Positions 10,772 through 59,384 of a stretch of DNA of 64,000 nucleotides are shown in pieces; position 1 is the stretch's first letter, and every line of letters begins with the position of its first letter. A program made the position numbers and the translations under genes. Under the pieces are notes generated by a model, which saw only the letters and a program-made list of their open reading frames with translations, was not told the origin of the DNA and searched no databases. This DNA comes from Patescibacteria group bacterium UBA1388 (GTDB taxonomy: Bacteria > Patescibacteriota > Microgenomatia > UBA1400 > PJMF01), in the NCBI GenBank assembly GCA_002305355.1, contig DBQS01000016.1, forward strand, positions 36,279-100,278, given 5' to 3'.

Positions 10772-11827
10772 TTATCTCGCGCCTACTGAGCCAATCAAAC
10801 CATAAATTGGAGCGATGATCGCCATCATCATCCCTCCCACCGCCAGTCCCACAAAAACAAGCAAGAGCGGTTCTAGCATAGCTGTCATTTTCTTTACAGA
10901 CTTACTCACCTTATAATCCATATTCTCAGATACATTTTGCATTGCTTCCTCAAGCGTGCCACTCTTCTCACCAACTTCCATTAACTTAATCATAATGCCA
11001 GGAATAATGTTCTGCTTGCTTTGTAAACCATGAGAAAAAGGATGACCAGCAACAGCTTGCTCTCGAGCTTGATCCACCAAATCTCTGACTTCTTTTTTTA
11101 AAATTACCTCCTGAGCAAGTTCTAATGAGGTGGTGATAGGGATACCAGAAGAAAGAAGTAAATGTAAACTCCGACTAAATCTGGTGATATCGATTTCACG
11201 AATTAGCTTAGAAACTCCAGGAAATGAAAATGCTATTTGTAAGATAAACTCACGTTTGGTTTGATACAAAACAAAAATAATCATCACTAACAACGCTACA
11301 ATTCCGAGTACAATTTGCCAATTGCCAGTCAAAGCGTTGGAAGTAAAGATTAATGCTTTCGTCGCCATTGGAAGAGTGACATTCAACCTTGTAAATACAG
11401 TTGAAATACGAGGAATAACAAACAATAACATACCCAACAACACGCCAATAAAAACAATCATCACGACAATCGGATAAAACATGGCTGACTTCACACCGTC
11501 AATGAATTCCATTTCTTTTTTAATATTCCCCTGCAAATCGTACAATGTTTCTTCAAGTGTACCTGCTTCTTCAGCGGCTTTAATCAAACTCACTGTGACT
11601 TTGTCGAAAGTATAAGGATATCTAGAAAAAGAGTCGGAAATTTGTTTGCCTGCAGAAATATCTTCACGCAAGGACAGTAAAATCTTTCTTTGGTTTCCTT
11701 TTGCTTCTGCGAGCAACGAGTCGACTGTTTCTGAAATAGGGATACCAGCCGACAACATCGTTTTTAAATTAGCGATTAAGCTAATTTTTTCCTCTTGCGC
11801 TAATCTAACTCTGCCGAATCCAAACAT
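10772..11827 (-). CDS. pilC: Type IV pilus assembly platform protein PilC / GspF family.
   Basis: Polytopic protein with two GspF-type repeats (GTLEETLYDLQ ... MFYPIVVMIVFIGVLLGMLLFVIPR). Lies 3 nt downstream of pilB. Confidence 0.85.
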   Translation of the reverse strand: MFGFGRVRLAQEEKISLIANLKTMLSAGIPISETVDSLLAEAKGNQRKILLSLREDISAGKQISDSFSRYPYTFDKVTVSLIKAAEEAGTLEETLYDLQGNIKKEMEFIDGVKSAMFYPIVVMIVFIGVLLGMLLFVIPRISTVFTRLNVTLPMATKALIFTSNALTGNWQIVLGIVALLVMIIFVLYQTKREFILQIAFSFPGVSKLIREIDITRFSRSLHLLLSSGIPITTSLELAQEVILKKEVRDLVDQAREQAVAGHPFSHGLQSKQNIIPGIMIKLMEVGEKSGTLEEAMQNVSENMDYKVSKSVKKMTAMLEPLLLVFVGLAVGGMMMAIIAPIYGLIGSVGAR

Positions 11828-11830
11828 GCC

Positions 11831-13525
11831 CTACTCCATTTCAGTCTTGGTCACTCTTAATACTTCTTCAATCGTGGTCATGCCCTTAGTAATTTTTTCA
11901 ATTCCATCATCAAACATGCTAGTTAATCCCTCTTTGAGGGCTTGTTCACTTATCGCATCTGCATCTGCTTTTTTGGCAATTAATTCTCGCAAATCCTTGG
12001 AAACTTCCAGAACTTCATAAATTCCAATTCTGCCCTTATAACCAGTGTTATGACACACTCGGCACCCTTGACCTCGATAAACTCTAACTTCTTTTTTATC
12101 ACCTACGGGAATGTAGTGTTTATTAATCGTTTCGAGAGAAAGATATTTTTGCAACTCTGTCACTGGTATTGTTTCTGAAACTCGACAATGTGGGCAGATC
12201 CTTCTCACCAGTCTTTGAGCTACAATCACATGCACCGTACCAGCTACTAAAAATGGCTCAACCTTCATATCAAATAACCGAGGCAACGAGGAAACTGCAT
12301 TGTTCGTGTGCAAGGTTGAGAAAACAAGATGTCCAGTCAAAGCCGCATTGATCGCAATGGCAGCGGTCTCATTGTCCCTAATTTCTCCCACAAATATGTA
12401 ATCAGGATCCTGTCTTAATAGGGACCTCAGACCATTGGCAAAAGTTAAATTTGTTTTTTCATTGACTTGCACCTGATTAGCACCTTTAATCCTATACTCA
12501 ACTGGATCTTCAATACTGGTGAGATTAGTTTCCCGCGTGTTGATCGTTTTTAGAATTGAGTAAATAGTAGTCGTTTTTCCAGATCCAGTTGGGCCGGTCA
12601 CCAAAATCATGCCGTCAGTTCTGGCAGCTGCCTTTTTAATTTTTACCAAATCTGTTTCATTAATACCTAGCTCTTCCAAAGAATAAGACCTAGCTTGAGA
12701 TGTCAACAGTCTCATCACAACTTTTTCGCCTTCTGCAATGGGAATTATTGAAACACGCAAGTCCAGTCGCTCTCCGTTAATATCCATTTTAATTTTACCG
12801 TCTTGTGCCGCTAAGTGCTGATCAGTTCTTAAGCTTGATAAAACTTTAATTCTAGTCACAATTCTACCGAGCAAGTCTTTAGGCAGACTGGCAATGTCAT
12901 GTAAAATCCCGTCAATCCTAAATCTGACCAACACCTCATCTTCATTGGGTTCAATATGAATATCTGATGCATGCTCTAAATAAGCAGCTTTAATCACTTC
13001 ATCGACCAATTTTTTAACGGGTGGATCGTGAGCAACTGTGCGCATCACTCTTCCATCTGCTTCATTCAGTAACTTACTAAATATTTCCTGAAAATCGGTG
13101 TGATAATTTAATAAGGTTTGATTTAAATCTTGTTCAGTAGCAAAAAAGATTTTGACTTGTTTGCCTGTTTTTTGGGCTACTAGTTTGGGTAAAATTTGAT
13201 TCTTAAAATCGGCTGTGGCAATACTGACATACTTTTCATCTTCTGCAAAAGTCACCATTTTATGACGTTTTGCTACCTCCTCAGGCATAATGTTCATCGT
13301 TTCATCAGAAATATTTTGTTTACTCAATTCAACAAATGGCACTTTAATTACTTCGGCAACTAACTTTCCCATAGCCTGATCGGTGGTATATCCTTTTTCA
13401 ACCAAACCATCCCAAAGACTCACATCTGTCTCTTCTGCAAATTTAGCGATTTTTTTGAGATCTGTGCGGCTGATAATTTTTTTAGCCAACAACAAATTGC
13501 TGAGTTGGGCATCAGTGAGTTGCAT
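11831..13525 (-). CDS. pilB: Type IV pilus assembly ATPase PilB / GspE family.
   Basis: GspE N-terminal domain, Walker A GMILVTGPTGSGKTTT, Walker B/Asp box and the C-terminal CxxC...CxxC zinc tetrad (CPHCR...CRVCHNTG). Confidence 0.9.
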   Translation of the reverse strand: MQLTDAQLSNLLLAKKIISRTDLKKIAKFAEETDVSLWDGLVEKGYTTDQAMGKLVAEVIKVPFVELSKQNISDETMNIMPEEVAKRHKMVTFAEDEKYVSIATADFKNQILPKLVAQKTGKQVKIFFATEQDLNQTLLNYHTDFQEIFSKLLNEADGRVMRTVAHDPPVKKLVDEVIKAAYLEHASDIHIEPNEDEVLVRFRIDGILHDIASLPKDLLGRIVTRIKVLSSLRTDQHLAAQDGKIKMDINGERLDLRVSIIPIAEGEKVVMRLLTSQARSYSLEELGINETDLVKIKKAAARTDGMILVTGPTGSGKTTTIYSILKTINTRETNLTSIEDPVEYRIKGANQVQVNEKTNLTFANGLRSLLRQDPDYIFVGEIRDNETAAIAINAALTGHLVFSTLHTNNAVSSLPRLFDMKVEPFLVAGTVHVIVAQRLVRRICPHCRVSETIPVTELQKYLSLETINKHYIPVGDKKEVRVYRGQGCRVCHNTGYKGRIGIYEVLEVSKDLRELIAKKADADAISEQALKEGLTSMFDDGIEKITKGMTTIEEVLRVTKTEME

Positions 13526-13566
13526 ACTTTTATCATATACTAAAAATTAACTAAAATGAAACTTTT

Positions 13567-14643
13567 GTTAGTCGCACATACTTTTCGGAAAATTGGTTGT
13601 AATAAATTGCACTGGTGATTGATAATTTAGTGCCATATGTGGTCGCTTGGTGTTGTACCAAGCTAAGTACTTAGTTAGTTTAACTTGGAAAGTGTTTAAG
13701 TCATAGTAGATCTCATCATTTCTGTTAATAAACTCTTCTTGGATGGTTCTGTTAAATCTTTCAACAACACCATTAATTTTGGGTGATCTAGGATAAATAA
13801 ATTGATGTTTAATTTTTTGCTTCTCCAGATACTGGTGAAATGTTTTAAAAAATTCTGACCCGTTGTCTGTTTGGACTGTATAAACTTGATGAGGCAAAAT
13901 ATTTTGGAATTCCTGAAAAGTAATTTTAGCTTGCAAGCTAGAGAGAGTGCTAACTTTCCTGACATGAGCTAGCTTTGTAAAGATATCGATACAACACATG
14001 AAGTTGTGTCGAGTGTTGTCGATATACACCACCACAGAGTCCATTTCGATATATCCTGGTTTAGTAACCTTAGGAGATCTTCTTGATCTATCTTTAGATA
14101 ATTTATTCTTTCTCTTAACTCTTCTTGGTGGATCAAAGAATAAGTTTCTTCTCCTAATCACTTTAGAAATAGTTCGACTGCTAATTGAGGGTATATTAAG
14201 CTCACCAGCATATTCATCTAAAAAGATCTTGAGTTTTCTTTCTCCAATGTTGCCATGCTGCTCTCTAAACTCACGAATAAACTGAACTAATCTCCAATCA
14301 GTCGTCATCTGTCTAACTCTCTTGGGACGAGTCTTCTTAGGTACCAGTGATAACAGAGCTTTTCCAGATTCTTCATACTTTCTTTTCCAGTCATACAAGG
14401 TAGATTTGCCAATCTTGAATGCTTGAATAGCTGATTTGTAGCCATATTTGTAGTAGTGATCTAGCACGTGGAGTCTAAACTTGGCAGGATCTGATTTATC
14501 AAAGTTAAGTGAGTTTTCAAGTGTCTTCATCAACCAATCATACTGATTGTTATATGAAAACAACTCAATATTTCGTCTAATCCCAACTCCTTGTTTAACT
14601 TTCACGACTATCTTTCCATTCCGGAAAGTATCGTGCGACATTC
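13567..14643 (-). mobile_element. IS481-family-like insertion sequence (1077 bp) with imperfect terminal inverted repeats and a 7-bp target-site duplication, AACTTTT.
   Basis: IRL is GTTAGTCGCACATACTTTTCGGAA (13567-). IRR, as the reverse complement of 14620-14643, is GAATGTCGCACGATACTTTCCGGAA. AACTTTT occurs at 13560-13566 and again at 14644-14650. A single transposase ORF fills the element. Confidence 0.75.
13568..14641 (-). CDS. DDE transposase (rve integrase core) with an N-terminal HTH, IS481-like.
   Basis: YIEMDSVVVYID...VQTDNGSEFF...INGVVERFNRT forms the D, D, E triad of the rve domain. The start codon lies inside the IR. Confidence 0.85.
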   Translation of the reverse strand: MSHDTFRNGKIVVKVKQGVGIRRNIELFSYNNQYDWLMKTLENSLNFDKSDPAKFRLHVLDHYYKYGYKSAIQAFKIGKSTLYDWKRKYEESGKALLSLVPKKTRPKRVRQMTTDWRLVQFIREFREQHGNIGERKLKIFLDEYAGELNIPSISSRTISKVIRRRNLFFDPPRRVKRKNKLSKDRSRRSPKVTKPGYIEMDSVVVYIDNTRHNFMCCIDIFTKLAHVRKVSTLSSLQAKITFQEFQNILPHQVYTVQTDNGSEFFKTFHQYLEKQKIKHQFIYPRSPKINGVVERFNRTIQEEFINRNDEIYYDLNTFQVKLTKYLAWYNTKRPHMALNYQSPVQFITTNFPKSMCD

Positions 14644-15923
14644 AACTTTTTATCACCCAAAAATCCAGTTACTTCTGGTCTAATTATTTCTTTTTGAATT
14701 AACAAACCAGACGTCACGGTAAACAATCCATAACGATCATTCAAAGTATCAACTGCCTGAGAGATTTGTTCTTGTTGCCACCAACCCGGAAACCAGCAGT
14801 CTTGAATTTCAGACCATGGTTTGAGCAAAGACACGCCAACGTGCAATCTAATCACTGGAAATTGATTTCGCCAATTGGGGTATAACTGATACTTAATTAA
14901 ATCAAACATTTCGCTGACGTGTCGAACATAATATTTCAGGGTAAGATGATCTGCCCAAAACTGATGATTGCCAGCCAATGAACAAAAAACCAAACGACCC
15001 GCCAACTTCATTTTACGTAATTTATAAATTACTTCCTCTGAAAGATTATAAAGTGTGGACATAATCAAATCTTGGCTGCTGCTCAACCTGTATCCAGTGA
15101 TTGAGCGACTGACACTTTTCATGTAGGGTAAGTCATTTGCCAAGCGTTTTAAAAACAGCGGTTCTTCACCACGACCCATTTTACGCAGTTCATCACTCCA
15201 AAAAGGACCAAACATCGATCTTAAAACTTCAGTGGGAATAAAATTAATTTGATAAGGTACAGTTACTCCAATTCTGCCAAGACGCTTCGCTAAACGTGGA
15301 CCAATTCCGCAAACGTCTTTAAACTGAGTTTGAGCTAATATAAGCGCTTTGTTTGCTGCTGTAACTTGCCGCACGCTACCCTTTGGCGCAGTTTCACCAA
15401 CCATTTTAGCTAAAAATCGATTCTCCGCGATCCCAATATTGCAGGTCACCCACTCTCCTAAAATTGATTTAACTTTATCTTGAATTTTCAAGGCAAAATT
15501 ATATGGTGAATCGTATAATTTTTGAATCTGAGCATAATCAATAAAAACTTCATCTAAAGAAAATACTTCTGTGCTGGGACTAAGCTGATCAAACAACTCC
15601 TTCAAGCGCTTGGTAGCCGAGAAATACATTTCAAAAGCGGCTGGCATCTCAACTAAGTCAGGAGCAAGCTGGTATGCCTCTGCTAAAGAACAACCGGTAC
15701 CAATACCTTTTAATTTTGCCTCTTTGGAAGCAGCAATCACACAACTTCTACCCAATTCTTTTACAACCACCACCGGCTTATTGCGCAAAGCGGGTGTTTC
15801 CTGTTGGAGAAGGGTGGCAAAGTAAGAATTAATATCAATGTGCAGTACAACTTGTTGTTTCAGATGGTTAAGTTCATTCACACCATACCTCCGCCAATTC
15901 CCACACCTCTTCACTCCGGTCAA
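14595..15923 (-). CDS. Y-family DNA polymerase (DinB/UmuC-like translesion polymerase). The 3' end was rewritten by the IS insertion.
   Basis: VVLHIDINSYFA and SLDEVFIDY match the DinB HVDMDCFFA and SLDEAYLD motifs. The last 16 codons (LNVARYFPEWKDSRES) are encoded by the IS terminus; the pre-insertion reading would end ...GDKKFHFS*. Confidence 0.8.
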   Translation of the reverse strand: MTGVKRCGNWRRYGVNELNHLKQQVVLHIDINSYFATLLQQETPALRNKPVVVVKELGRSCVIAASKEAKLKGIGTGCSLAEAYQLAPDLVEMPAAFEMYFSATKRLKELFDQLSPSTEVFSLDEVFIDYAQIQKLYDSPYNFALKIQDKVKSILGEWVTCNIGIAENRFLAKMVGETAPKGSVRQVTAANKALILAQTQFKDVCGIGPRLAKRLGRIGVTVPYQINFIPTEVLRSMFGPFWSDELRKMGRGEEPLFLKRLANDLPYMKSVSRSITGYRLSSSQDLIMSTLYNLSEEVIYKLRKMKLAGRLVFCSLAGNHQFWADHLTLKYYVRHVSEMFDLIKYQLYPNWRNQFPVIRLHVGVSLLKPWSEIQDCWFPGWWQQEQISQAVDTLNDRYGLFTVTSGLLIQKEIIRPEVTGFLGDKKLNVARYFPEWKDSRES

Positions 15924-16119
15924 AAATTAAACGATAATTATTACCCTGTGACATGACCGAGTATTGACGTTTGCTGATTTGGCTATCACGAATTTCCGAA
16001 ATAAAAGTTACCCTATCCACTGCATAAATCCTTCCTTGCCACTCAAATTTTCTAGGAATAAAATGGGCTTTTTTATAGACACCAACCACATTAATCCGCT
16101 CGCCAATAACCTGGTACAT
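15874..16119 (-). CDS. Hypothetical 81-aa protein immediately upstream of, and overlapping, the Y-family polymerase gene.
   Basis: ORF only. Position suggests a co-transcribed accessory gene (YolD-like is speculative). Confidence 0.3.
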   Translation of the reverse strand: MYQVIGERINVVGVYKKAHFIPRKFEWQGRIYAVDRVTFISEIRDSQISKRQYSVMSQGNNYRLIFDRSEEVWELAEVWCE

Positions 16120-45404: not shown

Positions 45405-45788
45405 CTAATGATGGTGCTCTTCTTCAGCGGCCATAGCTTCATCGCGAGTGGCATGAATCGTGCCAGCGGGATGATTTGGCGGAGAATAAAGCGTGTACAG
45501 CTTCAAGTCATTGCTGCCAGTATTAGTTAGATTGTGCTCACTCCCCGCTGGCACAACTACCGCTGATCCATCTTTGATAGCAAACGTTTCACCATCAATC
45601 AACACTTCTCCCTCACCTTCATCAACTCTAAAAAATTGATCAACATGGTCGTGGACTTCTTTACCAATGTCTTCTCCTGGCTTTAAACTCATCAACACCA
45701 GTTGAGTGTGCTCACCGGTAAAAATCACTTCGCGAAAATTAAAATTTTCTTTAGTCAATTTTTCAATATCATCTACAAAACCTTTCAT
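45405..45788 (-). CDS. Cupin-domain protein.
   Basis: Two-motif cupin pattern G(x)5HxH...: GEDIGKEVHDHVDQFFRV ... VVPAGSEHNLTNTG. Confidence 0.65.
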   Translation of the reverse strand: MKGFVDDIEKLTKENFNFREVIFTGEHTQLVLMSLKPGEDIGKEVHDHVDQFFRVDEGEGEVLIDGETFAIKDGSAVVVPAGSEHNLTNTGSNDLKLYTLYSPPNHPAGTIHATRDEAMAAEEEHHH

Positions 45789-45843: not shown

Positions 45844-45956
45844 CTTTCACGACTACCTTTCCATTCCGGAATGTATCGTGCCCAATTCATCATCGAAATG
45901 TATTGTGCAATATTTACAACTGCTGAGATCATTTACATTCCGAAAAGTATCGCGCC
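45844..45956. repeat. Two direct copies of IS-terminus-like sequence, related to the right end of the 13567-14643 IS.
   Basis: 45844-45882 CTTTCACGACTACCTTTCCATTCCGGAATGTATCGTGCC matches 14602-14640 with 3-4 mismatches. 45932-45956 TTTACATTCCGAAAAGTATCGCGCC is a second copy in the same orientation. Confidence 0.5.
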
Positions 45957-46060
45957 TCGTACTCAATATGTCCATTCCACCATAACAAAGCATGTCTTTC
46001 CAAGTAAATCTAGTTTCTAATTTTCCCTTTTGCAAAAATTTATTGTAGGATGGATACAAT

Positions 46061-46948
46061 ATGGCAAATCATCATCCCACCCAACCAAATCCTGTCCCAG
46101 ACAATACAACTGTCAATCAGTCAATGCCAACAACTGCTCAGTCAGCTCAAACCAACCCCGTTGCACCACCCAACCAAGCTGCTCAACCCCTACAAACTAC
46201 ACCTAAGCCCAGCCAACCTACCCCCAACCAACCAGCACCCGCCCAATCTCAGACAACAGCAACTCCTACTCTCTCCACAGACAACATCGCACCCGCTGTT
46301 TATGGTCAAAAACCCAGTTCAAAAAATAAACTTGCCATCATGCTAATCATCTTTGTGTTTCTGGCAGCTCTCGCTGCCGGTGTCTATTTTATGTTTGGCG
46401 AACAACTCATCGATCAATTTACCCCAGCCCCTTCTGAACCAGAGCGAGAGGTATTTGTTGATCCTCTGCTCGATATGCCGGGCGCAACTTCTGGTAGTTA
46501 TATGTTAGATAATGATCCTACTGTGATCTATGAAGAGGACCCTGCGATTACCGAACCAACAACTTCTCAAGATGACGGGCAACTTTCCACTACAAAACCT
46601 AGTGCCACTCCAACTTCTCTCTCAGAAGCTAACGAATTGTCATTGCCAAAATACACCAACTCAACATATGGTTTTGAGGTTTCCTACCCAGACTCATATC
46701 AGCTGATGACCGATAGTGAAAATCTTTATGGACACCCGAATGGCGTGGCGCTACTGTATAAAGGCGGCCAAGCCTACGACATTGTCATTGAAGTATGGGA
46801 TACTGAGGCTGAATATCAAGCTGCCTATGTGGGCAGAGCCAACGACCTGAAAGTTATTCAAAATCAAGGCAAATTTATCACCATTCTCAACAACACCCAA
46901 GAACCAGATAATCAGGCAATTATTGATTCATTCAAATTGGTAAATTAA
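46061..46948 (+). CDS. Membrane-anchored protein with a Pro/Gln/Thr-rich low-complexity N-terminus and a C-terminal extracytoplasmic domain.
   Basis: PQ-rich 90 aa, TM LAIMLIIFVFLAALAAGVYFMF, then a C-terminal domain. Confidence 0.4.
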   Translation: MANHHPTQPNPVPDNTTVNQSMPTTAQSAQTNPVAPPNQAAQPLQTTPKPSQPTPNQPAPAQSQTTATPTLSTDNIAPAVYGQKPSSKNKLAIMLIIFVFLAALAAGVYFMFGEQLIDQFTPAPSEPEREVFVDPLLDMPGATSGSYMLDNDPTVIYEEDPAITEPTTSQDDGQLSTTKPSATPTSLSEANELSLPKYTNSTYGFEVSYPDSYQLMTDSENLYGHPNGVALLYKGGQAYDIVIEVWDTEAEYQAAYVGRANDLKVIQNQGKFITILNNTQEPDNQAIIDSFKLVN

Positions 46949-49213: not shown

Positions 49214-49639
49214 TTATTTTTGATCAGATTTTCCTCCAAATTTTTTCTGCAACCAATAATAACTAAGGGCAAATATCACAATTAACAAGAGTGTTAGGTA
49301 AGCCAGAATCATACCAATTGATTCAATGTATAAAAATTCTCCTTTGGCAAATACTGGAAAAACGTCTCCGTGAGAAGGAATTAAAAGCAGCAATGCACAG
49401 ATTGCGACAGTTGGGGCAAAGATGGCATAAGTGGTGTGAGCCGCTTTCTCTCTAATACTTTGCTCACGCTCATCAATAGCGAGCTTGGCTTGAGATTGGA
49501 CCGTCATTAAAAAAATGATTGCTGTTAGCACTCCCACAACTGCCAGCAAGTACAATTTTAACCAGAGCGCAACTACTACAATCGTAATAATAAACAAAAG
49601 GGCTGCCGCCCTAAGAAGGTGATAATTTCTTTTATTCAT
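49214..49639 (-). CDS. Small 3-4 TM membrane protein, partner of the XRE regulator.
   Basis: Hydrophobic helices. Positioned in the same operon as the XRE gene. Confidence 0.4.
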   Translation of the reverse strand: MNKRNYHLLRAAALLFIITIVVVALWLKLYLLAVVGVLTAIIFLMTVQSQAKLAIDEREQSIREKAAHTTYAIFAPTVAICALLLLIPSHGDVFPVFAKGEFLYIESIGMILAYLTLLLIVIFALSYYWLQKKFGGKSDQK

Positions 49640-58808: not shown

Positions 58809-59384
58809 TTATCCGCATCTTTTTGAAATGCTGATAAATATATAGAGTAAAGCGAAAAATAAAATCGTCCAACTGAGAATAAACAAAATCAACTTCGGTG
58901 CAAGCAACACAGGAACCAACCAAACCACACTCACGATGGCTAGAGTAAATATTGATAAATAAACTAAGCTAATAAATATTACACTTTGCCTTAATTTAAG
59001 ACGTGATTGATTTTTCCAAATCCTTTTAAATAAAACCTGGGCCAAAAACCCAACCCCGGCCAACACTACCAAGACTATCAGCACCTGGATAAAACTAGTG
59101 TTTGGTACGAGTTGACCAACAATCAACAGCTCTACTGCTTGATATGGTTGTGCCAATAATATTTGTTTTTGATTGATTGTACTAGAAATATTCTCATGAT
59201 TCATACTCAGGGCAATTAGGCCGACCGGCAATGCTGATAAAATCAATAGATTAAAAATCAATAATCCCAGCAAGGTGTGAAGACAGTAATCAAGCAAAAT
59301 TTTGATGATTTGATGTACTATTTTTGGGCAAGAGAGAATTTTTGAATAATTTTTGCTTTTTTTCACTTCTTGATTATAGAACAA
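58809..59384 (-). CDS. Multi-TM membrane protein.
   Basis: Hydrophobicity only. Confidence 0.35.
   Translation of the reverse strand: MFYNQEVKKSKNYSKILSCPKIVHQIIKILLDYCLHTLLGLLIFNLLILSALPVGLIALSMNHENISSTINQKQILLAQPYQAVELLIVGQLVPNTSFIQVLIVLVVLAGVGFLAQVLFKRIWKNQSRLKLRQSVIFISLVYLSIFTLAIVSVVWLVPVLLAPKLILFILSWTILFFALLYIFISISKRCG

What the first reader, a model, noticed from the sequence alone, without database searches (positions are those of the whole stretch)
13560..14650. Compact IS481-like IS with 7-bp target-site duplication inserted into the 3' end of a Y-family polymerase gene, 35 bp upstream of pilB
The element (13567-14643) is delimited by imperfect IRs and flanked by AACTTTT on both sides. 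Its single transposase ORF spans nearly the whole element.
- The insertion replaced the native last five codons of the Y-family polymerase (reconstructed ...GDKKFHFS*) with 16 IS-encoded residues.
- It moved the polymerase stop from about 25 nt to about 1.1 kb away from the pilB start.
- Possible polar or promoter effects on pilB-pilC expression follow from this.
Basis: seen in the sequence. Interest (0 to 1): 0.55.

Follow-up and report, generated by a model that had tools for sequence, protein, structure and literature searches.

The report
Insertion sequence that lands beside promoters
A small jumping gene (IS481-like) has recently landed in the last four codons of a repair-polymerase gene just ahead of the pilus gene pilB, and it and its relatives sit 5 bp upstream of an ordinary bacterial promoter in most of the 12 sites examined, which hints at a new kind of target choice.

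Summary
The insertion is real. The window with the element and one repeat copy removed aligns without gaps to an IS-free contig from a close strain (5504 nt, 99.1%).

Corrections:
- The element is 1079 bp (13566-14644, minus strand), with TG...CA tips and about 27-nt imperfect inverted repeats.
- The target-site duplication is 5 bp (ACTTT), not 7. Seven independent pairs in this clade are all 5 bp.
- The transposase most likely starts at GTG 14605 (345 aa, D189/D247/E282). The ATG at 14641 is not conserved.
- It is best called IS481-like. The IS481 model is the top hit at 158.8 bits, below NCBI's cut-off of 224, and identity to annotated IS481 transposases is about 32%.
- Copies 99.3-100% identical lie at three other loci, so transposition was recent.

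Unexpected result: across 12 independent insertion sites, the DNA after the stop-codon end reads 5-bp duplication, TTGnnn, 17 nt, TATAAT. The promoter score peaks sharply at that register; the other end shows nothing. One such promoter lies 11 nt before a tmRNA gene.

In the window this motif is the candidate pilB promoter (TTCATT-17-TATGAT), which is left intact. Strong polarity on pilB is therefore unlikely, while the polymerase loses a conserved C-terminal motif. Promoter targeting is inferred from only 12 sites.

The parts
13566..14644 (-). Complete IS481-like insertion sequence, 1079 bp. In transposase orientation it reads 5'-TGAATGTCGCAC...GTGCGACTAACA-3'.
   Evidence: The ends were fixed by alignment to a 99.8% identical copy in another context (L001) and by five diverged relatives, four of them also exactly 1079 bp and one (L039) 1082 bp. 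An empty site is present in L008.
14645..14649 (.). Target-site duplication, copy next to the transposase-start end (ACTTT on the plus strand, AAAGT in gene orientation).
   Evidence: The empty site L008 carries a single AAAGT.
13561..13565 (.). Target-site duplication, copy next to the transposase-stop end (ACTTT on the plus strand).
   Evidence: Seven independent duplication pairs in the clade are all 5 bp.
14618..14644 (-). Left inverted repeat (IRL, transposase-start end): TGAATGTCGCACGATACTTTCCGGAAT. It contains an inward-facing -10-like GATACT at element positions 13-18.
   Evidence: Inverted-repeat alignment. The inner box co-varies between the two ends across relatives (GTCGCAC at both ends in the window and L033; AAGGCAC at both ends in L039).
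13566..13592 (-). Right inverted repeat (IRR, transposase-stop end). Its reverse complement is TGTTAGTCGCACATACTTTTCGGAAAA. It contains the TAA stop codon (13568-13570) and the terminal hexamer CTAACA.
   Evidence: The stop codon lies inside the terminal TAACA in all relatives.
13568..14605 (-). Transposase gene, 345 aa from GTG 14605: N-terminal helix-turn-helix domains plus an rve DDE core (D189, D247, E282; spacing 58 and 35). The frame stays open upstream to ATG 14641 (357 aa).
   Evidence: Pfam and NCBIfam hits. The DDE residues are invariant in 121 sequences. Codon 13 is GTG, TTG or ATG in every relative and is preceded by GGAAAG/GGAAGG. The tip codon is ATA in three of five relatives. 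Serine (TCA/AGC) and arginine (CGT/AGA) codon swaps in codons 18-23 show the region is coding.
14595..15881 (-). Y-family (DinB-like) DNA polymerase gene, IS-modified allele of 428 aa. The native last four residues FHFS are replaced by 16 residues, the first spanning the junction and the rest IS-encoded. Its stop codon lies 6 nt past the transposase GTG.
   Evidence: IMS and IMS_C domains. The start was set by homology to P0121. The native C-terminal motif PEVTG[FY]LGD..[FY]x[FL] is present in nearly all of 120 homologues.
13532..13560 (-). Candidate pilB core promoter, left intact by the insertion: -35 TTCATT (13555-13560), 17-nt spacer, -10 TATGAT (13532-13537), then 6 nt to the ATG at 13525.
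   Evidence: Read from the sequence and scored (8 of 12, below the 9 of 12 threshold of the scan tool). Both hexamers are unchanged in L009/L010, where the spacer and leader differ. It has the same register as the promoter motifs at 11 other insertion sites.
11831..13525 (-). pilB (type IV pilus assembly ATPase), intact, 564 aa.
   Evidence: TIGR02538 at 513 bits and Pfam T2SSE. Same length in the IS-free L008 and L009.
10772..11827 (-). pilC (T2SSF platform protein), intact, 351 aa.
   Evidence: Pfam T2SSF. Same synteny in L009.
45844..45962 (-). Three degenerate, directly repeated relics of the transposase-start end of a related IS, upstream of a cupin gene. The best relic covers the first 46 nt of the element, 40/45 identical over the terminal 45 nt.
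   Evidence: blastn, sequence. The region is identical in four related contigs, so it is old and fixed.

Best explanation
This is a recently transposed copy of a 1079-bp IS481-like insertion sequence from a clade common in Microgenomates-type (candidate phyla radiation, CPR) bacteria.

Shown by the data:
- The element has TG...CA tips, imperfect inverted repeats of about 27 nt, and one DDE transposase gene that fills it.
- It makes 5-bp target-site duplications.
- A close strain has the empty site.
- Near-identical copies lie at other loci.

Inferred, by analogy with the IS3 and IS481 families:
- The helix-turn-helix part of the transposase binds the GTCGCAC...ATACTTT(C/T)CGGAA boxes of both repeats.
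- The DDE core cleaves at the CA-3' tips and joins them to target phosphates 5 bp apart.
- The element probably moves by copy-out-paste-in through a circle. The joined ends would then read CTAACA-N17-GATACT, a transient promoter for the gene that starts at GTG, 39 nt inside the element.

Inferred from 12 sites, with about 0.6 probability: target choice is promoter-directed.
- The element inserts in one orientation, with its stop-codon end 5 bp upstream of the -35 hexamer of a sigma-70-type promoter.
- In promoter coordinates the staggered cuts fall at roughly -41 and -36.
- The most likely cue is RNA polymerase holoenzyme bound at the promoter, or the DNA bend it makes there. Plain sequence read-out seems less likely, because sites with a poor -35 but a good or extended -10 keep the same register.

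Applied to the window:
- The pilB promoter's -35 overlaps the last codons of the polymerase gene. Aiming at pilB's promoter therefore cost the polymerase its conserved C-terminal tetrapeptide.
- pilB's core promoter was left intact.
- In the chromosome the transposase is probably expressed only by read-through from the polymerase gene. That gene's new stop codon lies 6 nt past the transposase GTG, which would allow translational coupling.
For: Identity and recency:
- Empty site: 5504 nt, 99.11% identical, no gaps.
- The native polymerase allele ends GDKKFHFS.
- A second copy in another context differs at 2 of 1079 positions.
- Further copies are 100% identical over 782 nt (L011, L013) and 99.3% over 564 nt (L012).
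- 1599 homologues were found, many on contigs of about 1.08 kb, as expected for collapsed repeats.

Family:
- IS481 model E=2e-46 with full-length coverage, against IS3 at E=6e-32.
- rve, rve_3 and HTH_28 domains.
- About 32% identity to proteins annotated as IS481 family or ISKpn28.
- DD(35)E residues invariant.

Ends and duplication:
- Seven 5-bp pairs: AAAGT, CTTAG, AAAAG, ACAGC, ATCTC, GCTTC, ATAAT.
- The inverted repeats co-vary between ends across relatives.

Start codon.

Promoter register:
- TTG at positions +6 to +8 in 7 of 12 sites (background 2.6%, p about 6e-9).
- A -10 match of at least 5 of 6 at 16-18 nt spacing in 8 of 12 sites (background 1.7%).
- A combined score of at least 9 of 12 in 6 of 12 sites (background 0.19%).
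- The mean score peaks at offset 5 (8.3, against about 4.4 at other offsets); the other end of the IS is flat.
- The fixed-register consensus is N5-TTGnnn-N17-TATAAT.
- The independent scan tool places promoters starting exactly 6 nt after the IS end in L033, L014 and L017.
- The L033 promoter lies 11 nt upstream of the mature 5' end of a tmRNA gene.
- The pilB hexamers are conserved in IS-free relatives about 80% identical in DNA across this locus.

Precedent and background:
- The related IS1202 family inserts in one orientation, with a 5-bp duplication, 5 bp from the XerC site (PMC10132070).
- A junction promoter is the usual arrangement in copy-out-paste-in elements (bioRxiv 10.1101/2022.12.17.520857).
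Against: - Only 12 insertion sites from six related elements were available. I first noticed the TTG bias by eye; the -10 test, the register test and the tmRNA test came afterwards and examine other positions.
- The window's own site is one of the weaker ones (-35 matches 3 of 6, total 8 of 12, below the scan tool's threshold).
- Three sites (L023, L036, L039) score best at offset 4 or 6-7, not 5.
- No transcription start sites are mapped for these organisms.
- The transposase has no recognisable extra domain and no sigma region 4 similarity, so the contact with RNA polymerase is pure inference.
- Circle formation and the junction promoter are analogies and were not observed.
- The IS481 score is below NCBI's curated cut-off.
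Confidence: 0.62

Rival explanations
1. It is an ordinary IS481-like element with only a short sequence preference (N5 followed by T or TTG). In the gene-dense genomes of these bacteria, purifying selection removes insertions everywhere except just upstream of promoters. The promoter pattern is then survivorship, not targeting.
For: - TTG is the strongest single signal (7 of 12 sites).
- These genomes are compact, and most sites lie in short intergenic regions (gene tables).
- Insertion sequences in general persist mainly in intergenic regions, and IS481 members are often juxtaposed to coding sequences (PMC13548323).
Against: - Selection alone does not fix a single-nucleotide register. Any position between the upstream gene and the -35 would be tolerated.
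- Among the five sites without TTG, three (window, L023, L035) still carry a -10 match of at least 5 of 6 at the right spacing (chance 1.7% each).
- The window insertion was not harmless. It removed a C-terminal motif conserved in nearly all of 120 polymerase homologues, which suggests position was dictated by the promoter rather than by neutrality.
- Orientation is the same at 12 of 12 sites.
Confidence: 0.25
2. The transposase targets sequences that mimic its own end, as reported for IS911 without OrfA and for IS30. The T-TGA after the duplication resembles the TGAAT tip of the left repeat, so an insertion recreates an end-to-end junction, and the link to promoters is incidental.
For: - Four of 12 sites read TTGA after the duplication, and the element's tip is TGAAT.
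- Three tandem relics of the same end lie together at 45844-45962, as repeated insertion next to an existing end might produce.
Against: - The second conserved block, TATAAT 17 nt downstream, has no counterpart in the inverted repeat, where GATACT lies 6 nt from the tip hexamer.
- The spacing from the IS end to TGA would be 6 nt, not the 5 nt expected for a junction.
- Sites without TGA keep the -10 register.
Confidence: 0.08
3. It is not a real insertion: either an assembly chimera that joins a repeat to this locus, or a native polymerase C-terminal extension that merely resembles an IS end.
For: Short-read assemblies do make chimeric joins across this repeat. In L015 and L035-L037 the two flanks belong to different insertions.
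Against: - Both junctions lie in one contig with a matching 5-bp duplication.
- Removing the element restores a gapless 5504-nt match to an independent assembly.
- None of the 120 polymerase homologues has the extension.
Confidence: 0.02

Closest known systems
IS481 family (for example IS481 of Bordetella pertussis, ISKpn28)
   Same: - About 1 kb long, with a single transposase gene and no frameshift.
- N-terminal helix-turn-helix plus an rve DD(35)E core.
- TG(T)...CA tips and a short duplication within the family's 2-15 bp range (PMC10045372).
- The IS481 model is the best HMM hit, with full-length coverage.
- The nearest annotated proteins are IS481 family.
   Different: - Only about 32% identity to annotated members.
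- The score is below NCBI's curated cut-off (158.8 against 224).
- The duplication is 5 bp, whereas most IS481 members make 6 bp.
- The left tip is TGA rather than TGT.
- The clade is seen mainly in CPR metagenome contigs.
- It has an apparent promoter-register target preference, for which I found no report in this family.
IS1202 family, ISAjo2/ISAba32 group ('dif site hunters')
   Same: - DDE transposase distantly related to IS481 and IS3, with TGT...ACA tips.
- 5-bp duplication, always the same orientation, and placed 5 bp from a protein-binding site (PMC10132070; bioRxiv 10.1101/2022.12.17.520857).
- This is the same geometry as seen here: IS end, 5-bp duplication, then the recognised motif.
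   Different: - IS1202 elements are about 1.5 kb, with transposases of 441-457 aa that carry extra C-terminal domains. This element is 1079 bp with a 345-aa protein.
- Their target is the XerC side of dif/pdif sites, not promoters.
- No notable HMM similarity (ISNCY_2 model at 19 bits).
IS3 family (IS911, IS2, IS150): copy-out-paste-in with a junction promoter
   Same: - Related DDE core; the IS3 model is the second-best hit (111 bits).
- TG...CA tips.
- An outward -35-like hexamer at the right tip and an inward -10-like hexamer in the left repeat. Joined with a 5-bp spacer they would sit 17 nt apart.
   Different: - There is no OrfA/OrfB arrangement and no programmed -1 frameshift.
- Circles were not observed here.
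Ty3 retrotransposon and other integrases tethered to the transcription machinery (own knowledge)
   Same: An RNase-H-fold integrase places the element at a fixed distance from a transcription initiation complex. The promoter stays usable and the element gains a safe site.
   Different: Those are eukaryotic retroelements with known protein tethers (TFIIIB and others). Here the tether is hypothetical, the host is bacterial, and the polymerase would be the sigma-70 holoenzyme.

Membership tests
IS481 family | Transposase groups with IS481-family transposases | tested here: inconclusive
   NF033577 is the best hit (E=2e-46, 158.8 bits, model positions 16-283 of 284) and beats IS3 (111 bits), but it is below the curated cut-off of 224. 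The best annotated relatives are IS481 family at 31-33% identity. ISfinder could not be queried.
IS481 family | Single transposase ORF without programmed frameshift; helix-turn-helix plus DDE (rve) core | tested here: met
   One uninterrupted ORF, 13568-14605 or 13568-14641. HTH_28, rve and rve_3 domains. D189, D247 and E282 are invariant.
IS481 family | Length about 1-1.3 kb, terminal inverted repeats beginning TGT (TG...CA) | tested here: met
   1079 bp. The right repeat begins TGTTAG and the left TGAATG; 22 of about 27 positions match. The TGT rule is taken from bioRxiv 10.1101/2022.12.17.520857.
IS481 family | Short target-site duplication (2-15 bp, mostly 6 bp) | tested here: met
   5 bp in seven independent pairs. 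The range is from PMC10045372.
IS3 family | Two overlapping ORFs (OrfA and OrfB) joined by a -1 frameshift | tested here: not met
   A single continuous ORF. The IS3 model scores lower than IS481 and below its cut-off (111 against 160).
IS1202 family | Element of about 1.5 kb with a transposase of 441-457 aa carrying beta-barrel and C-terminal domains | tested here: not met
   1079 bp and 345 aa, with no additional domains. Only the insertion geometry is shared (PMC10132070).
Sigma-70-type promoter (as the target) | -35 and -10 hexamers 16-18 nt apart, upstream of a transcribed gene | tested here: met
   Nine of 12 sites score at least 8 of 12 at the same register. The tool finds hits in L033, L014 and L017. 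In L033 the motif lies 11 nt before the tmRNA 5' end.
Sigma-70-type promoter (as the target) | Experimentally mapped transcription start 6-8 nt after the -10 | not testable with these tools
   No transcript data are available for these uncultured organisms.
Y-family DNA polymerase (DinB-like) | IMS catalytic domain with conserved acidic residues, plus the little-finger domain | tested here: met
   PF00817 at 116 bits and PF11799. HIDINSYF and SLDEVF motifs are present. The Pol IV subfamily models score below their cut-offs.

The most novel reading that the evidence does not exclude
This IS clade finds its targets through RNA polymerase holoenzyme bound at promoters, or through the DNA bend it makes just upstream of the -35. 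It would insert at about -41/-36 in a fixed orientation. That would make it a bacterial counterpart of Ty3-type tethered integration and a 'promoter hunter' alongside the known dif, res and attTn7 hunters.
Probability: 0.3. Interest if true: 0.85.

Novelty: new variant of a known kind. Interest (0 to 1): 0.55.

Why it matters
As a plain IS insertion this is routine. It does show that small CPR genomes carry active insertion sequences, and it gives exact ends, duplication length and start codon for a large, apparently undescribed IS481-like clade.

The register result could matter more if it holds. A minimal 345-aa DDE transposase that places DNA at a fixed distance and orientation from ordinary promoters would be a new class of target choice in bacteria. 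It would explain how an IS can persist in very gene-dense genomes. It would also give a promoter annotation for uncultured lineages for free, since every insertion marks a promoter. It might be usable for promoter-proximal DNA delivery.

For this locus, it changes the expected phenotype. The polymerase loses a conserved C-terminal motif, at the position where Pol IV carries its clamp-binding motif (own knowledge). pilB-pilC should still be expressed.

Tried and rejected
- Exact-protein look-ups of the 357-aa and 345-aa transposase and of PilB found nothing. The source genome is therefore not in that index.
- Viral-contig scans gave nothing useful.
- The 7-bp duplication model is rejected (TCTTAGT against ACTTAGT in L001; CACAGCT against AACAGCT in L017). 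The 6-bp model is rejected by L039 (ATAATT against ATAATG).
- ATG 14641 as the start codon is rejected. It is ATA in three of five relatives, and it would lie inside the spacer of the predicted junction promoter.
- A search for sigma-70 region 4 similarity in the N-terminus of the transposase found none.
- A test for enrichment of leaderless-type promoters at gene starts in the window was inconclusive: 11 ORFs, against 6-10 at shifted registers. The 'leaderless pilB' idea is only a possibility.
- No promoter-like or terminator-like site lies inside the IS on the gene strand. An outward IS promoter driving pilB is therefore not supported.
- Literature searches for an IS that targets promoters, or for IS481-like elements in CPR bacteria, found no precedent. 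This does not prove that none exists.
- The 'Pseudomonadales' label of L012 was considered as evidence of cross-phylum transfer and set aside. The flank has 45% G+C and encodes large surface proteins typical of CPR bacteria.
Full report
**Observation.**
- AACTTTT occurs at 13560-13566 and 14644-14650, with imperfect inverted repeats just inside.
- One minus-strand ORF (13568-14641) fills the interval.
- The upstream Y-family polymerase ORF runs 16 codons into the element, ending ...GDKK-LNVARYFPEWKDSRES*.
- pilB (11831-13525) and pilC (10772-11827) follow on the same strand.
- The element has 35.5% G+C, against 38.5% for the window. It is the only full copy in the 64 kb.

**Proof of insertion.**
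- The best polymerase homologue, P0121 (97% identical), is 416 aa and ends ...GFLGDKKFHFS.
- Its contig L008 carries HSP20, DsbD, a small ORF, the polymerase, then 21 nt, then pilB and pilC, with no IS.
- The window with the element and one repeat copy deleted aligns to L008 over all 5504 nt at 99.11% without a gap.
- More distant relatives (L009 and L010, polymerase 85% identical) have the same IS-free arrangement.
- The insertion is therefore real and polymorphic among close strains.

**Exact ends and duplication.**
- A copy differing at 2 of 1079 positions lies between ribosomal-protein and thrS genes on a 108-kb contig (L001).
- Two other loci hold 100% identical (782 nt; L011 and L013 are the same sequence) and 99.3% identical (564 nt; L012) partial copies.
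- In transposase orientation, similarity between the window and L001 begins at TGAATGTCGCAC and ends at GTGCGACTAACA.
- The leading T is preceded by T, G, G, T or C at five independent sites, so it belongs to the element.
- The element is thus 13566-14644 (1079 bp, TG...CA). The duplication is AAAGT (ACTTT on the plus strand, at 13561-13565 and 14645-14649).
- Related elements 70-77% identical give further pairs: CTTAG, AAAAG, ACAGC, ATCTC, GCTTC and ATAAT. Four of these elements are also exactly 1079 bp.
- A 7-bp model fails in L001 and L017, and a 6-bp model fails in L039.
- The two repeats match at 22 of about 27 positions. Their inner box changes in parallel at both ends across relatives (GTCGCAC or AAGGCAC), as expected for a transposase-binding site.

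**The transposase.**
- Pfam finds HTH_28, rve and rve_3 domains.
- NCBIfam ranks IS481 first (158.8 bits, E=2e-46, full-length coverage), ahead of IS3 (111 bits). Both are below their curated cut-offs.
- The closest annotated proteins in plasmids are IS481 family or ISKpn28 at 31-33% identity.
- The catalytic residues D201, D259 and E294 (357-aa numbering; D189, D247 and E282 in the 345-aa protein) are invariant, with 58 and 35 residue spacing.
- The ATG at element positions 4-6 is ATA in three of five relatives.
- Codon 13 is always a start codon (GTG, TTG or ATG) and is preceded by GGAAAG or GGAAGG.
- Serine (TCA/AGC) and arginine (CGT/AGA) codon switches in codons 18-23 show protein-level constraint from there on.
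- The likely product is therefore 345 aa, from GTG 14605.
- The TAA stop lies inside the terminal TAACA in every relative.
- 'IS481-like' is justified. Strict membership is not shown.

**Abundance.** The family has 1599 homologues at E<=1e-10, many on contigs of 1.07-1.7 kb, the signature of a collapsed repeat. The few named sources are Microgenomates or Woesebacteria.

**Unexpected target pattern.**
- I listed the DNA beyond the stop-codon end for 12 independent sites: the window, L001, L002, L014, L015, L017, L023, L033, L035, L036, L037 and L039.
- TTG follows the 5-bp duplication in 7 of 12 sites (background 2.6%, p about 6e-9).
- If that hexamer is a -35, a -10 should follow 16-18 nt later. 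It does: TATAAT three times, and CATAAT, TAAAAT, TATCAT, TATGAT and TATACT once each.
- Eight of 12 sites match at least 5 of 6 positions there (background 1.7%). Six of 12 reach at least 9 of 12 overall (background 0.19%).
- Scanning all offsets from 0 to 30, the mean score is 8.3 at offset 5 and about 4.4 elsewhere. Nine of 12 sites peak exactly at offset 5. The flank at the other end of the IS is flat.
- With no spacer freedom the consensus is N5-TTGnnn-N17-TATAAT.
- The independent scan tool reports promoters beginning exactly 6 nt after the IS end in L033 (TTGAGA-17-TATAAT, 11 of 12, with TGn), L014 (TTGACA-17-CATAAT, 11 of 12) and L017.
- In L033 the -10 ends 11 nt before the mature 5' end of a tmRNA gene, which needs a promoter exactly there.
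- Sites with a poor -35 (L023, L035, L039) carry TGn-extended -10 elements at the usual register.
- Orientation is the same at 12 of 12 sites.

**Reading of the window.**
- After the duplication (13561-13565) come TTCATT (13555-13560), 17 nt, TATGAT (13532-13537), 6 nt, and the pilB ATG (13525).
- Both hexamers are unchanged in L009 and L010, although the spacer and leader differ.
- This site scores 8 of 12, below the scan tool's threshold, and is one of the weaker ones.
- The -35 overlaps the last codons of the polymerase gene. An insertion 5 bp upstream of it therefore removes FHFS from the polymerase.
- That tetrapeptide is part of a motif, PEVTG[FY]LGD..[FY]x[FL], present in nearly all of 120 homologues down to 49% identity.
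- It sits where bacterial Pol IV carries its beta-clamp-binding motif (own knowledge), so the polymerase may be impaired in vivo although its catalytic domains are intact.
- pilB and pilC are intact and keep their core promoter. No terminator-like or promoter-like site lies inside the IS on that strand. Strong polarity on pilB is therefore unlikely.
- The new polymerase stop (14595-14597) lies 6 nt past the transposase GTG. This would let read-through transcripts and terminating ribosomes feed transposase synthesis (inference).

**Mechanism.**
- *Shown:* a DDE element with TG...CA tips, 5-bp staggered target joining, recent mobility and a strongly non-random target context.
- *Inferred by analogy with IS3 and IS481:* copy-out-paste-in through a circle. 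Joining the ends with a 5-bp spacer would place CTAACA (TTAACA or ATAACA in relatives) 17 nt from the conserved GATACT of the left repeat. This is the classic junction-promoter layout (bioRxiv 10.1101/2022.12.17.520857), and it would start transcription just upstream of the GTG.
- *Inferred from the 12 sites:* promoter-directed targeting. A complex bound by RNA polymerase, or its bend just upstream of the -35, is the most economical cue, because poor-(-35) sites keep the register.
- *Rivals:*
  - A short TTG preference plus purifying selection. This is weakened by the register at non-TTG sites, by the fixed orientation and by the damaging position in the window.
  - Targeting of sequences that mimic the element's own end. 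This is weakened by the -10 block, which has no counterpart in the repeat.

**Comparison and novelty.**
- The element is a new, diverged member of the IS481 kind.
- The insertion geometry (one orientation, 5-bp duplication, IS end 5 bp from a recognised site) is that of the related IS1202 'dif hunters' (PMC10132070), but the target class differs.
- Searches of the paper library found no IS reported to home to promoters, and none describing this clade in CPR bacteria.
- A recent survey notes only that IS481 elements are often juxtaposed to coding sequences (PMC13548323).
- I therefore rate it a new variant of a known kind. The IS diagnosis has high confidence; promoter targeting has moderate confidence.

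**Caveats.**
- There are 12 sites from six related elements.
- Several flanks come from assemblies that are chimeric across the repeat.
- One element (L002) lacks a duplication.
- No transcript data exist for these organisms.
- All look-up and scan quotas that could have added sites were exhausted.

Noticed in passing
window 45844-45962: There are three directly repeated, degenerate relics of the transposase-start end of a related IS. The best covers the first 46 nt of the element (40/45 identical over the terminal 45 nt) and includes the GTG start. They lie between a cupin gene (45405-45788, minus strand) and an ORF at 46061 (plus strand). The region is identical in four related contigs (L043, L044, L046, L047), so it is old and fixed. 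Why three ends lie in tandem is unexplained.
   Followed up: partly
window 15874-16119 (minus strand): An 81-aa ORF overlaps the polymerase start by 8 nt and is syntenic in L008 and L009. It gives a weak DUF6504 hit (22.8 bits, just under the cut-off of 24.2). It may be a partner of this Y-family polymerase.
   Followed up: partly
window 14650-14700 and homologues P0121-P0240: The Y-family polymerases of this group share a strongly conserved extreme C-terminus, PEVTG[FY]LGD[KRQ]x[FY][QH][FL]. Longer variants end QLSRLD or QLGRLG, which resembles a beta-clamp-binding motif. I found no annotation for it.
   Followed up: partly
L012 (CAZKSJ010000005.1): A 99.3% identical IS copy lies at the end of a contig from a genome bin labelled 'uncultured Pseudomonadales'. 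The flank has 45% G+C and encodes a 1400-aa surface protein ending in a peptidase-like region. This looks like a CPR contig that was mis-binned rather than cross-phylum transfer.
   Followed up: partly
L011 4670-5451 = L013 11787-12568: This IS copy is 100% identical to the window over positions 1-782, then breaks off at ...CAGACAA into unrelated sequence. It is either a truncated copy or an assembly break. The same sequence appears in a Woesebacteria genome bin and in an activated-sludge contig.
   Followed up: no
L002-L007: A related element (76% identical) is flanked by ACTAC and AGACC, with no duplication, consistently in six samples. This suggests a rearrangement between two copies or an adjacent deletion. 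Its downstream flank still carries TTGCTG-17-TATAAT at the usual register.
   Followed up: no
window 13525-13560; 49639; 59366; L023 2418-2460: Several genes have a -10-like hexamer ending exactly 6 nt before the start codon: pilB, an ORF starting at 49639 (TTGACA-17-TACAAT), an ORF starting at 59366, and the lipase gene in L023. This hints at leaderless mRNAs. An enrichment test in the window was inconclusive.
   Followed up: partly
L014 498-1376 and 1420-2498: Two unrelated rve-type IS elements (25% identical transposases) lie head to head about 40 nt apart, upstream of rho.
   Followed up: no
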